NCBI GenBank assembly: GCA_051294375.1
Contig: CM119263.1
Coordinates: forward strand, 19,744,115-19,808,114
Reading direction: 5' to 3'
DNA: 64,000 nt
Origin: Paraspadella gotoi
Lineage: Eukaryota > Animalia > Chaetognatha
Shown here in pieces: positions 9,001-16,549 of the stretch (within the stretch, counting starts at the first letter, position 1; each line of letters starts with the position of its first letter). A model generated the notes under the pieces. It was not told where the DNA came from and did not search any database. It saw only the letters and a list, made by a program, of their open reading frames with translations. The translations under genes were made by a program, and so were the position numbers.

Positions 9001-12000
9001 CAATTCTATTTTTGGTAAAAAAAAAGTTTAAGGATGAAAGGACGAAAACGGAGACAACACTTACGAAAAACACTCAACAAACGGCGCAACAATTTCCACC
9101 TGCAATCCCGCTGCCCAGAGGGCCATCTCGCGGGGATCTTCCCTGTACCGGCCATATGTGTTCGGGTAGAGCGTTTGATATACGCGATCCCTTTGCCATT
9201 TTCCTGGTTCCATTCGGTAACCGGGGCCAGACCACTTCGGCATGTTGCTGACTGAAAGGTAGAAAGAATAGATCAAATGGTTCTAAAAGTGATGCATAAT
9301 ATTGCATTATCGCATAAGTAGTAATAAAAAGATTTTTGAAAAATATCTAATTATATTGTTGTGGATAAGGCGCTAAGTGGGCTGAAGATGACTATCCGTA
9401 ACTTCTTTAACCCCCTCTAGCAGCTATGGAACGGGTCCTGGGCTTGGAACCAGGCTTGAGGGTTTTCCACGCCCCCAAGGCGGCTTACGGCCGTCCTCAC
9501 ACTTCCCGCAGAGTAGGTACCGGGTTGGGATTGAACCCGGTACCTAGTGGTCATGAGCTGATGGCTTTACTCAATGAGCCACCGGGTCACGACTGAAGGA
9601 TTCATGCTTAGAGGCGGGGTGAACTTTGCTATGCCCGACTACATTGTAGGCATTAATTTTATTTTTAGATTGTCATATTGATTGATATGATTACCGGTCA
9701 GATTTGAAGGCAAAGTGGAAAAGAAACTTCTAACGATTTCCTTCTGCCTCCTTGTGGTCGAATCGAGAACGTGTTGCTTCCTCCGCGCCTCCCAGTGGAG
9801 ATTAAAGTCCGCCATTCTTATTCTTCCTTGAATAAGCTGTCGCATCCGTTTAAAATTAACTGTCTACATAATTGTTTAATAAAAAGGCAATAAAACATCA
9901 TAAAAATAAATAAATTCTAAAATTATATGTTTCGTATATTTGGTTGAAATAATTTAAAAACGGCATTTTGAAAACTTTTTGGGCAAGATTTTTATTTTTA
10001 CGATTATTAGAACTCCGGCACCATCCGGTTGCTATCAACGACGAGAGAGAGAGAGAGAGAGAGAGAGAGAGAGAGAGAGAGAGAGAGAGAGAGAGAGAGA
10101 GAGAGAGAGAGAGAGAGAGAGAGAGAGAGAGAGAGAGAGAGAGAGAGAGAGAGAGAGAGAGAGAGAGTGAGAGAAGAAATCGTAAGATTCTAAGAACGAA
10201 ACTTGTCCCTTCGCCTGTTGATTGTAAAATCATTGAACAAATGACACGCATCCGGATTTTACGATTAAAAAAGGATCAAGGACAATGCACCGACTTCATT
10301 ACAATCGAAAAAAGATTTACGATTGGTATCTTGAATAAGAGAATAAGAATTTAGAAAGCAGATGATGGGGGATGGTAATTTTTTTATTCTTAATAAAAAA
10401 TTAAACTTTTAAAACAAAATTAAATATTTTTTGGTAATTTAATATTAGTAAATTAAGCTCTTTTTAGGTGTTATCAAGTGCAAACATCAATATCAACTGA
10501 TCAATAAGATTTTTTTTTTGTACCAAAAATTTTCCTGCTTCGTCTAGATTAAGTTCCACACTTCCCGCCCCAAAGTTGATGACAACTGATGACCATTACG
10601 ATGTCATAACGACGACGACGACGACGTCGATAACGACGACGACAAACATGATGATCGCACAAAATTTTAAATCAAAATAAGCCGAATTTGTTTTTTTTTA
10701 ACTTCCTCAAGGAGAAAAATGGATTAAATTTGAGGTCTTACGACGAGAGTCCGAATGCAGGGGAAAACACGCAAAGGATTGGTTATATTTTTTTGACTTG
10801 AGCCCTTGAGTTAAGTTGAGTTGACTTGAGTTTTGCCCGATAGTAAATCTCTGGTTTTCTTATCTTCTCTCTTTCATTTCTACTTCATCTTTTTTTCTAG
10901 TTTTATCATTTGTCGCGACCAACTTTTTTCTCAGTATTTAATCACCTTCCACTCTCCTACCCCCGCCACCCTCCCGATGACCCCCCCCTACTCAAAAACC
11001 CCCCACATCAGGCTTGGTCTTCAACGACGTCCGCATCCTGGACGACGTCCACGACGGCGTCGGGCATGGCGGAACATCCTCGGCGAGGGGCGACGTCCTC
11101 TTCGTGCGACGACCCTACGTGCTGCCCGACCGAGTGGAGGAGGAAGAGGAAGAGGAAAGGGTGGAGGAATGCAGCGGGGAAGGTTGGGACGACGAGGACA
11201 ACGCTTCGGGATCGGGTGAGGAATTTAAATGTTTCTTTGGAGGTTTTAAAAATAGATGTAATGATTGAAGACTAATGTTAATGACTAATTTTAATGACTA
11301 ATGTTAATGACTAATGTTAATGACGAGATTTTATTTAATTATGAAATTTTAATTATTCAATGAAATTGGTACAACCAATATAAAAATTATCCATTCATTT
11401 AATAAATAAGCTATCTTGCCTAAGCTATCTTATAACTTTATAACTTTCATTCGTGACTGTTGAAATCATTTGACTAGAAAAAAGCGTGCCTTGTTCTGAA
11501 ACGTTAACTAATGTTAACTAATTCCCAAGTCAACTAAGAATTAGTAGCGAACGCAAATTTTTAACCAACTCCCCTGACCGCTGCCTTTTTTTCTATTTTG
11601 TATTTCTCTTAACAGAGAACATTAATACACCAAGTAATAGTTTAATTATTCCCTTGCACGTCAATTTTGCTTTTGGTTGCATTTTTCAGACTTAAATGAT
11701 GCATAATTAATATTAATTATATATATAAATTTAATTTACTAGATTTAATGCATCATAAGCTTTAGAAAAAAAAATTTTAACGTTTAGCTTTCGCTTCTCG
11801 CGTCCACAATCAGTTTTTCGCCTCTTTTGATTCGCGAAATTTTTTTCATTTTTTGAACTTGGTTTTTTGAGGATGAAAAAGAAATTCGCATACTTTTTTT
11901 CCCAATATTTAGCTCATCATTATTAGTAATATTAGTTGATAATTTTCACAAATTTTTATTGCATTTCGAAATCTTTAGATTTTTACACCCGGTGTTCTTT

Positions 12001-15000: not shown

Positions 15001-16549
15001 TCTGACTCCGAACGAAAACAACGCGGTGGCGGGTGAGTGGAAAAAAGGAAAAAATAAAGAAAGAAAATGTAAAGAAGGAACGAAAAGGAAGGAAAAAAAG
15101 AAAGTTTTGCTGTCTAGGAAAGTCCAAAGAAAAATACAAGTGAAACAAAGGGAGAAAAATAAAAAAGAGAAGTAAAAAAAAATTAAGTCAGAAAGAAGAA
15201 AAATGAAAGTAATAGAGAAGATCAAAGAAATTTTAAATATAAACAGTATTAAACACGCAAATGGAAAAAAAAAATTAAAACAGGAAAATACAAGTGAAAC
15301 TGAAAGGGAGAAAAATAAAAAAGAGAAGTAAAAAAAAATTAAGTCCAGAAAGAAGAAAAAAATGAAAGTAATAGAGAAGATCAAAGAAATTTTAAATATA
15401 AACAGTATTAAACACGCAAATGGAAAAAAAAAATTAAAACAGGAAAAAAGAAAAACATCGAACGAATAAAACAAAAAACGGGAAACAAAAATTCGCAAAT
15501 TATATTCAACTTTCTCCAAATGTTAGGCTTCTACAACAGCTGGGACGGAAACGCCAACTACATCACGTTCGATTTGCTGAAACCTGGAGGAGACGAAACC
15601 CCCGTTGAACCTTCCTTCTTCTCGCAACCCGCCTTCCTCGAAGTCACCGTCGTCGTCGACAACGAGGAGGCCGTCACGGGAACCAAGCAGGGCGAGCTCA
15701 AGGTGATTCAAGCAGAAAATGCTGCTTGAGCGAAGTGGAGAACATTTGAGAAGAACGTAAAAAACTTTCTCTTTCTCTTTCTCTCTCTCTCTCTCTCTCT
15801 CTCTCTCTCTCTCTCTCTCTCTCTCATCTTCTCTCTTCTCTCTCTCTCTCTCTCTCTCTCTCTCTCTCTCTCTCTCTCTCTCTCTCTCTCTTCTCTCTCT
15901 CTCTCTCTCTTCTCTCTCTCTCAGGTCTGGAACATCCACACGGGTCGCGTTGTGCGGCACCTGACCGACGCCGGGTCGGGCGCGCCTTCCGCTCACGCTC
16001 CTGGCAGCGCCGTCACGTGCCTCACCGCCGGCGCCGACCAAAAACTCGTCGTTAGCGGCGCCACCGACGCTCTCCTCAAAGTCTGGAGCCTCTCGTCGTC
16101 GGAGGAAGAGGCCGACGGCGTCACGTTGTTAAAGGGTCACGAAGACGAGGTGGGCCTGGCGATTGGGGATTTCAAATCCCTACGTCAAATCTTTCAGCTG
16201 TCATAGTTTCATTCTCAAATTCCTCCGTGGAATCAGGTATGGTGTTGCGCCATCTCCAAGGACGGCGAGTTGGTGGTGTCGGGTTCGCGCGACCGAACGA
16301 TCCGCTTGTGGAGAGTCTCCAACGGATCCCTCGTCTGCACTTTCAACTGCAACGTCGACGTCTTTCAAGTGAATTTCGTTGATTATCCCCCAGATCCTTT
16401 TAAACATGAAATTATTTCGCTTGTGTTTTGACATTCTTTTTCGTCGCCAGGTTCAAATGACTTCGGACAAAAGAACAATCGTTGCCTTGGGCGACCGCGA
16501 CGTGTCGCGAATGCTTATCATGCTCAAAGTCGTCATCCAACATAAATGA
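1..16549 (+). CDS. Alpha-neurexin-like single-pass receptor (LamG-EGF-LamG-[Ser/Thr insert]-LamG-EGF-LamG-acidic Cys loop-TM) with a cytoplasmic WD40-repeat region; 5' end outside the window
   Basis: Thirty GT-AG exons: 1-77, 971-1180, 1244-1454, 1618-1832, 1988-2135, 2311-2460, 2759-3067, 4420-4607, 5414-5561, 5688-5779, 5875-6045, 6141-6256, 7575-7667, 7751-7836, 8146-8318, 8420-8527, 11012-11215, 12043-12184, 12361-12656, 12750-12869, 12950-13038, 13126-13241, 13467-13647, 14303-14407, 14546-14747, 14859-15032, 15527-15702, 15925-16149, 16237-16368, 16451-16549 (TGA). Motifs: FYVGGVP..GFAGCIQDL; EGF CENAGRCVDGWNSFSCDCSATRFAGHSC; DLGDGSWH; LDDNKWH; MFVGGVP; EGF CVQNANGFKCDCALTSFSGEYC; DRLALGFMT; TM IFGIICGVALTVASLMYVAW; WD repeats VSGATDALLKVW and GHEDEVWCCAISKDGELVVSGSRDRTIRLW. 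Exon 4420-4607 needs three single-base indel corrections. Confidence 0.85.
556..812. mobile_element. Solo-LTR-like 257-bp interspersed element with a target-site duplication
   Basis: Starts TG(TGG) at 556 and ends (TTGC)CA at 812, flanked by direct repeats TGAAAC at 550-555 and 813-818. A diverged homolog lies in SPAG6 intron 5 (32961-33206 and copies). Confidence 0.65.
6604..7326 (-). CDS. Nested antisense gene, 118 aa, unknown function
   Basis: Four phase-compatible GT-AG exons (7326-7268, 7091-7049, 6930-6826, 6753-6604) give MASPSPGNQAARPSQRPNKSDMGLGHQTTMKPIEVALAVERLYNPP...KLDKEGIDQMIARLTRD...SYQIGGWDYWH*. GC-rich exons entirely inside host intron 6257-7574. Confidence 0.7.
8680..9815 (-). 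CDS. Second nested antisense gene, about 105-110 aa, unknown function; last exon uncertain
   Basis: Exon 9815-9695 (MADFNLHWEARRKQHVLDSTTRRQKEIVRSFFSTLPSNLT, donor G|GTAATC) joins in phase to an exon from 9251 (VSNMPKWSGPGYRMEPGKWQRDRVYQTLYPNTYGRYREDPREMALWAAGLQ). That exon ends at 9100 or 9065 and is followed by acceptor TTTCAG at 8731. Inside host intron 8528-11011. Confidence 0.55.
9390..9588 (-). mobile_element. tRNA-derived SINE-like element
   Basis: Minus strand reads GACCCGG-TGGCTCATTGAG (A box)...CTCATGA...GGTTCAATCCC (B box), then a GC-rich non-tRNA body. Contains the inverted repeat TAGGTACCGGGTT/AACCCGGTACCTA. The 3' end is approximate. Confidence 0.6.
10028..10042. promoter_or_regulatory. 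Possible RFX X-box upstream of the second nested gene
   Basis: GTTGCTATCAACGAC has one strong half-site (GTTGCTA) and lies about 210 bp upstream of the minus-strand ATG at 9815. Confidence 0.3.
10043..10166. repeat. (GA)n microsatellite
   Basis: Long perfect GA run. Similar (GA/CT)n tracts at about 5073-5127, 15780-15922, 18439-18490, 31110-31167, 37676-37750, 46746-46826 and 53586-53666. Confidence 0.95.
11360..11430 (+). repeat. Short AT-rich dispersed repeat family (transposon fragment of unassigned class)
   Basis: ATGAAATTGGTACAACCAATATAAAAATTATCCATTCATTTAATAAATAAGCTA recurs at about 3920 (partial), 11360, 55218 and 63100, and reverse-complemented at about 34840-34893, 43895-43948 and 50745-50800. 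Confidence 0.8.
15131..15447. repeat. Intronic tandem duplication, two copies of about 155 bp
   Basis: AAAATACAAGTGAAAC...AAAATTAAAACAGGAAAA starts at about 15131 and again at about 15285. Confidence 0.85.

What the first reader, a model, noticed from the sequence alone, without database searches (positions are those of the whole stretch)
11012..16549. Neurexin-like receptor with a cytoplasmic WD40 region instead of a PDZ-binding tail
Seen: after the last LamG domain, the acidic Cys loop (EECSGEGWDDEDNASGSGC) and the TM helix (IFGIICGVALTVASLMYVAWKC), the frame continues with no stop and no indel correction through 11 more phase-matched GT-AG exons. These encode a linker and then WD40-like repeats (PQVWDI, IQAWNF, VMLWDL, LKVWNI, LKVWSL, GHEDEV..IRLWRV), ending VVIQHK*. 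Established: canonical neurexins have a short tail ending in a PDZ-binding motif such as EYYV and no folded cytoplasmic domain. Inference: this is an adhesion receptor with a built-in scaffold propeller, and the WD region is reminiscent of NWD1/NWD2/QUI-1-type C-termini. It may be an uncharacterised invertebrate receptor family; I cannot tell whether it is already catalogued.
Basis: partly seen in the sequence, partly recalled or inferred. Interest (0 to 1): 0.82.

Follow-up and report, generated by a model that had tools for sequence, protein, structure and literature searches.

The report
PHRED-1-type neurexin-like receptor with propeller tail
This spliced animal gene joins a neurexin-like outer part, a predicted membrane anchor and a predicted eight-bladed WD40 propeller inside the cell; that layout was already described in 2017 as the flatworm muscle protein PHRED-1, so this is likely a distant member of that family, possibly from an arrow worm, rather than a new kind of receptor.

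Summary
The 14-exon model at 11012-16549 is open with GT-AG introns. One spliced 3,362-nt contig runs from the last LamG exon through the TM exon into the WD40 exons, and a loose end ties it to the upstream LamG exons. The tail is about 35-41% identical along its length to LamG-bearing mollusc proteins and 43% to a Capitella protein. PHRED-1's own tail could not be compared. Small additions: the family's tail is predicted to be a full eight-bladed propeller; this copy has an acidic Cys loop that 9 of 9 relatives lack; and it branches outside molluscs and Capitella. Two unchecked scan notes call the host an arrow worm, which would extend the family to Gnathifera; my own lineage tests were blank. 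No special NWD1/2 affinity. The scan had not noted this family elsewhere. Low interest.

The parts
1..8527 (+). Upstream exons of the same gene (5' end outside the window): partial LamG, EGF, LamG, LamG, EGF, first part of the last LamG. Exons 1-77, 971-1180, 1244-1454, 1618-1832, 1988-2135, 2311-2460, 4420-4607, 5414-5561, 5688-5779, 5875-6045, 6141-6256, 7575-7667, 7751-7836, 8146-8318, 8420-8527
   Evidence: RNA joints; Pfam EGF and Laminin_G_2 hits on single exons; neurexin-1alpha LNS5/LNS6 best PDB hits. Exon 4420-4607 differs from the RNA by three indels (table 4).
11012..11215 (+). End of the last LamG domain, acidic stretch and first Cys of the acidic Cys loop (Cys at 11170)
12043..12184 (+). 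Stalk exon: second Cys of the loop and two further Cys
12361..12656 (+). Thr/Gly-rich stalk and most of the predicted TM helix (TM codons from 12602)
12750..13241 (+). Three exons (12750-12869, 12950-13038, 13126-13241): TM end and Ala/Ser/Gly-rich linker (141 residues in all, with the start of the next exon)
13467..15702 (+). Exons 13467-13647, 14303-14407, 14546-14747, 14859-15032, 15527-15702: linker end and the degenerate, family-specific blades 1-5 of the predicted propeller (from about 13573)
15925..16549 (+). Exons 15925-16149, 16237-16368, 16451-16549: canonical WD40 repeats, blades 5-8, stop TGA 16547-16549; no PDZ-type end
   Evidence: Pfam WD40 E 2e-4 and 6e-9; collinear with P0155; not covered by the RNA calls

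Best explanation
This is one spliced gene for a LamG/EGF, TM, linker, WD40 protein that is likely a divergent member of the PHRED-1 family and likely works as a single-pass adhesion receptor on muscle cells. Its neurexin-derived LamG/EGF arm would bind a neighbouring cell or the matrix. A predicted eight-bladed propeller on a flexible 140-residue tether would then recruit cytoskeletal or adaptor proteins directly, doing the job that neurexin gives to PDZ scaffolds (CASK, Mint) through its C-terminal motif, and so set the thickness, spacing and anchoring of muscle fibres. Shown here: exon structure, splicing across the TM-WD boundary, and family-wide sequence likeness. Shown in planarians only: muscle expression, a band above 270 kDa, and thick, disordered fibres after RNAi. 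Inferred: topology, fold, ligand binding, propeller partners, and a muscle role in this animal.
For: Single contig across LamG end, TM and WD exons. 14 of 21 hits to the family-specific half of a scallop tail carry LamG domains, and the 11 named ones are all molluscs. The model's tail matches the full-length mollusc tails at 35-41% over about 370-395 columns (E 1e-74 to 1e-94) against 28% and E 3e-28 for the best unrelated WD40 protein. Its ectodomain hits 15 of 323 session proteins, all family members. A profile of blades 1-5 built from 12 relatives, without the model or P0155, gives the model 165 bits in one domain; non-family proteins among the 40 rows printed reach at most 46. Capitella ELT97438, a species named in the PHRED-1 paper, matches at 43% over 288 residues. 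PHRED-1's annotated layout (last LamG 1678-1809, TM 1877-1926, propeller 2085-2469; PMC6453901 supplement) has the same spacing as the model (linker 141, tail 397). Function; a second lab reports a body-wall fibre phenotype.
Against: PHRED-1's own tail was not compared, because the supplement cell is cut at 400 residues. The model sits on a long branch outside all named members (quick trees, midpoint root). No tissue expression data for this animal. Its acidic Cys-loop stalk is unlike 9 of 9 relatives and looks more like neurexin. Scallops have at least two paralogues (P0304, P0309), so functions may differ within the family. No partner of the propeller is known; the paper itself says this is open.
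Confidence: 0.72

Rival explanations
1. Same family, but in this animal the protein likely acts at synapses or neuromuscular contacts like a neurexin, using a glycosaminoglycan on the acidic Ser-Gly/Cys loop to engage partners, with the propeller replacing the PDZ scaffold.
For: The stalk holds an acidic Cys loop with Ser-Gly pairs that 9 of 9 relatives lack. Neurexin's stalk has a heparan sulfate site and a downstream cysteine loop (PMC13373219, passages). The best PDB matches of the LamG exons are neurexin-1alpha.
Against: The only tested member is muscle-expressed, and neuron numbers were unchanged after RNAi. Homology of the loop to neurexin's was not tested by alignment, and acidic Ser-Gly motifs can arise readily (general knowledge).
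Confidence: 0.2
2. An independent fusion of a neurexin-like gene with a WD40 gene, convergent with PHRED-1.
For: Long branch separating the model and P0155 from the named members; the linker has no BLAST hit among 323 proteins.
Against: The ectodomain, TM motif and all eight blades are collinear with the family; 66 of 466 alignment columns are invariant over 11 rows; the family clade including the model has SH-aLRT 100 against 14 other WD40 proteins.
Confidence: 0.05
3. Two neighbouring genes (a short-tailed neurexin and a soluble WD40 gene) joined only by prediction or rare read-through.
For: Only one RNA run; contigs cannot show minor isoforms. Some databases list the scallop tail alone as a 415-residue protein (P0303).
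Against: One contig of uniform depth spans the boundary with canonical joints. Intron read-through after the TM exons gives no PDZ-like end. The fused form exists in 14 other proteins.
Confidence: 0.03

Closest known systems
PHRED-1 of Schmidtea mediterranea and its 14 lophotrochozoan homologues (Adler and Sanchez Alvarado, bioRxiv 10.1101/131789; Dev Biol 2017;427:165 as cited in PMC6453901)
   Same: LamG and EGF domains outside, one predicted TM region, linker of about 140-160 residues, WD40 region of about 385-400 residues inside, most conserved at the C-terminal repeats.
   Different: Divergent sequence (35-43% to molluscs and Capitella); acidic Cys loop in the stalk; tail ends right after the last strand without the basic extension of relatives; host possibly outside the lophotrochozoans listed. 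The full N-terminal count (6 LamG, 9 EGF in PHRED-1) cannot be read in this window.
Mollusc and annelid database proteins labelled 'neurexin-1-like' or uncharacterised (XP_021368527.1 Mizuhopecten, XP_012941838.1 Aplysia, KAL3854443.1 Sinanodonta, KAL8566603.1 Nucella, ELT97438.1 Capitella)
   Same: Collinear last LamG-LamG-EGF units, TM motif and whole propeller. The Capitella record is a 305-residue tail fragment only.
   Different: Longer Gly-rich linkers (197-301 residues), no Cys in the stalk.
Neurexin-1alpha
   Same: Closest solved ectodomain; LNS5-EGF3-LNS6 region; stalk with a Cys loop and possible glycosaminoglycan site.
   Different: Neurexin ends in a PDZ-recognition motif bound by CASK, Mint and Veli. 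This protein has about 540 cytoplasmic residues ending in a propeller.
Eight-bladed WD40 propellers (ODA16/DAW1, Rsa4/Notchless, TBL1XR1, Fbw7, Cdc4)
   Same: Top structural matches of the family tail model, Z 29-35, rmsd about 3 A over 310-319 residues.
   Different: Soluble proteins, 18-22% identity; a shared fold shows neither function nor ancestry. That these are eight-bladed is recalled, except Tako8, whose entry title says so.

Membership tests
PHRED-1 family | LamG and EGF domains outside the cell | tested here: met
   Pfam on single exons; collinear BLAST to relatives
PHRED-1 family | Predicted transmembrane segment between LamG and WD40 | tested here: met
   Single hydrophobic peak, motif shared with relatives
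PHRED-1 family | WD40 region in the same polypeptide | tested here: met
   One spliced contig across the boundary; Pfam WD40
PHRED-1 family | Conserved C-terminal WD40 sequence shared with homologues from species named in the paper | tested here: met
   43% over 288 residues to Capitella ELT97438. I could not see whether this accession is the one in the paper's figure.
PHRED-1 family | Reciprocal best BLAST hit to dd_Smed_v6_4789 (the paper's criterion) | not testable with these tools
   PHRED-1 was not returned by the searches; the supplement cell is cut
PHRED-1 family | Signal peptide and full N-terminal LamG/EGF array | not testable with these tools
   The 5' end lies before base 1 and no whole genome is held
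PHRED-1 family | Lophotrochozoan host | tested here: inconclusive
   GDH scan found no close relative; no spliced-leader motif in the window; tree position outside molluscs and Capitella; arrow-worm label only from unchecked notes
PHRED-1 family | Muscle expression and fibre-patterning role | not testable with these tools
   Only assembled contigs of one run
Neurexin (NRXN) | [quoted passage not shown] | tested here: not met
   About 540-residue tail ending VVIQHK; feature from PMC13373219
Neurexin (NRXN) | LNS-EGF-LNS ectodomain likeness | tested here: met
   Best PDB hits are neurexin-1alpha
Neurexin (NRXN) | Stalk cysteine loop with heparan sulfate site | tested here: inconclusive
   Acidic Cys loop with Ser-Gly pairs is present; not aligned to neurexin, glycosylation untested
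NWD1/NWD2/QUI-1 | Pfam Beta-prop_NWD2_C above its cut-off | tested here: not met
   28.4 and 27.4 bits against 33; not among the 25 families most matched by 24 family members
NWD1/NWD2/QUI-1 | Propeller descends from an NWD C-terminus | not tested
   No named NWD protein was in the trees

The most novel reading that the evidence does not exclude
The host is an arrow worm, so the neurexin-to-propeller fusion predates the split of Gnathifera from the other spiralians and is a spiralian-wide invention, not a lophotrochozoan one. This copy is the least remodelled form known: it keeps neurexin's acidic Cys loop and glycosaminoglycan site, which the mollusc copies lost, in front of a complete eight-bladed propeller of which the original description saw only three repeats.
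Probability: 0.35. Interest if true: 0.4.

Novelty: new member of a known kind. Interest (0 to 1): 0.22.

Why it matters
Modest. It corrects a would-be discovery to a known but little-studied family: 7 papers in the library hold the term PHRED-1, and by the listing one studies it. If the host is a chaetognath, it dates the fusion to the spiralian ancestor and gives a candidate molecular marker for that clade. The eight-blade prediction defines a construct for finding the propeller's partners, which the original paper left open.

Tried and rejected
Whole-genome search: none held. A single-exon search of the 50% representatives and both Atlas searches returned only generic WD40 proteins. Host lineage by GDH: the metagenome scan covered 7 of 64 parts, best animal-type hits 61-76%, no taxonomy; PDB hits mostly mammalian; uninformative. 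A chaetognath spliced-leader motif (PMC2481426) has 0 matches in the window, which is no evidence since leader genes lie elsewhere. Direct comparison with PHRED-1: supplement cell cut, and 6 motif look-ups found nothing in the cut text; no evidence either way. The careful tree did not finish, so only quick trees are quoted; left out were P0303, P0177-P0179 (cluster duplicates), P0316 (no complete tail), single-exon fragments, and all but 14 non-family proteins. Literature blanks: 'laminin G'+'WD40'+'spiralia' 0 papers; with 'lophotrochozoa' only the PHRED-1 preprint; 'chaetognath'+'neurexin' 4 listed, none relevant by title; neurexin 0 hits in the main text and 3 held supplements of PMC12460157; one search gave one unrelated review. 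The Dev Biol version and the preprint's supplementary figures were not seen and may list more taxa. One search used one exon border off by one base; it was corrected and the ectodomain numbers come from then on. No complex prediction was run, as no candidate partner exists.
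Full report
Observation. I rebuilt the exon chain from splice sites. One public run, X1 (kind guessed as RNA), held 38% of the sampled words. Laid on 10200-15760, a single 3,362-nt contig begins 27 letters before exon 11012 and skips 9 of the 10 model introns as listed GT..AG joints. 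The tenth, beside a skipped repeat, is fixed by the record coordinates. Laid on 1-10030, other contigs show 13 of 14 upstream introns, and a loose end at 8528 reads into exon 11012. Limits: one run, contigs only, no level or tissue.

Anatomy. The window holds the 3' part of the gene: a partial LamG, EGF, two LamG, EGF, LamG, a 196-residue stalk with four Cys and an acidic loop, one hydrophobic helix, a 141-residue Ala/Ser/Gly-rich linker and a 397-residue tail. AlphaFold2 on a complete scallop tail (P0303, 24-row alignment; pLDDT 83, pTM 0.81) gives 30 strands that fall into eight blades. P0155, which lacks blade 1, gives the same pattern at pLDDT 70. The wide structural search ranks ODA16, Rsa4, Notchless, TBLR1 and Fbw7 first (Z 31-35) and WDR61 and PkwA at Z 21-22. 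That the first group is eight-bladed and the second seven-bladed is recalled. The window's own tail was not folded.

Relatives. A search with the tail alignment returned two proteins covering 99% of it, both with LamG domains, out of 120 listed. One clusters with scallop XP_021368527.1. A search with the family-specific half of that scallop tail gave 21 hits among 1,538 candidates: 14 at 49-92% identity, all with LamG, the 11 named ones all molluscs (the query was a mollusc); the other 7 were generic WD40 proteins at 22-26%. A cluster look-up added a Capitella tail fragment. The model matches the full-length mollusc tails at 35-41% along their length and Capitella at 43%. It scores 165 bits on a profile built without it, against at most 46 for the non-family rows printed, and it groups with the family at SH-aLRT 100 while branching, with P0155, outside molluscs and Capitella (quick trees, midpoint root, long branch). 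No non-spiralian name appeared, but these word-based searches are not sensitive enough to prove absence.

What is known. The first literature search listed PHRED-1. I read the whole preprint text (figures not held). It describes a 2,536-residue protein with a signal peptide, 6 LamG, 9 EGF, a TM region and 3 SMART WD40 repeats, and 14 homologues, all lophotrochozoan (Schistosoma, Lottia, Octopus, Capitella named). It is expressed in muscle and induced by wounds, a band above 270 kDa drops after RNAi, and RNAi gives thickened, disordered fibres. The paper states that the role of the WD40 part is unknown. PMC6453901 (passages and supplement rows) reports a body-wall fibre phenotype and gives domain coordinates whose spacing matches the model. 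I could not compare PHRED-1's tail itself, so membership rests on architecture, spacing and likeness to proteins from a species the paper names.

Mechanism. Most likely a single-pass adhesion receptor on muscle: the LamG/EGF arm binds matrix or a neighbouring cell, and the tethered propeller recruits cytoskeletal or adaptor proteins in place of the PDZ scaffolds used by neurexin (PMC13373219, passages). The gene structure and family ties are shown, the muscle role is shown only in planarians, and the binding steps are inferred. The main rival is a neurexin-like synaptic role, prompted by the acidic Cys loop with Ser-Gly pairs that 9 of 9 relatives lack (for five of them the stalk was taken as the 199 residues before the TM).

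Novelty. Not a new architecture. Two unchecked notes of this scan call the genome an arrow worm's. Chaetognaths are placed in Gnathifera, sister to the other spiralians (PMC12460157, passages), which fits the tree position, but my own lineage tests were blank. If the label holds, the family's range extends beyond the published one; I found no paper saying so. The NWD1/2 idea found no support (seen as a listing only). Verdict: real gene, new member of a known family, interest 0.22.

Noticed in passing
window 4420-4607: This LamG exon is frame-broken in the assembly; the RNA contig differs by two insertions and one deletion and several substitutions, so it is likely an assembly error or a divergent allele (tables 3 and 4).
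   Followed up: partly
window about 6390-9280, minus strand: Likely nested antisense gene in the introns of the receptor gene: a contig with a CT..AC joint 8730/9100 overlapping exon 8420-8527, another contig at 6388-6752, and short minus-strand open frames near 9100-9243 and 6604-6736. Not identified.
   Followed up: partly
window 19135-20772: Intronless glutamate dehydrogenase, 545 residues, 2.6 kb downstream on the same strand, with a splice-acceptor-like AG 15 bases before the ATG; could be a retrocopy or trans-spliced.
   Followed up: partly
window 31433-38042, 40491-47091, 47342-53723 and 55071-58683 (inverted): Four copies at 98.8-99.5% identity of a block with an armadillo-repeat gene that looks like SPAG6/PF16 (name recalled; Pfam gave no hit on one frame), separated by N gaps; recent tandem duplication or uncollapsed assembly.
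   Followed up: partly
window 24631-25698, minus strand: Exons of a white-like ABCG transporter (Pfam ABC_tran and ABC2_membrane_7); a 653-base near-perfect duplication lies at 23350-24420.
   Followed up: no
window about 540-820: High-copy repeat inside the first intron (summed contig depth in the thousands); similar sequence follows the duplicated blocks.
   Followed up: no
proteins P0304 and P0309: Mizuhopecten has two family paralogues with neighbouring locus numbers (LOC110460118, LOC110460116), 1,715 and 2,634 residues; several family members are labelled 'neurexin-1' in databases, which hides the family.
   Followed up: no
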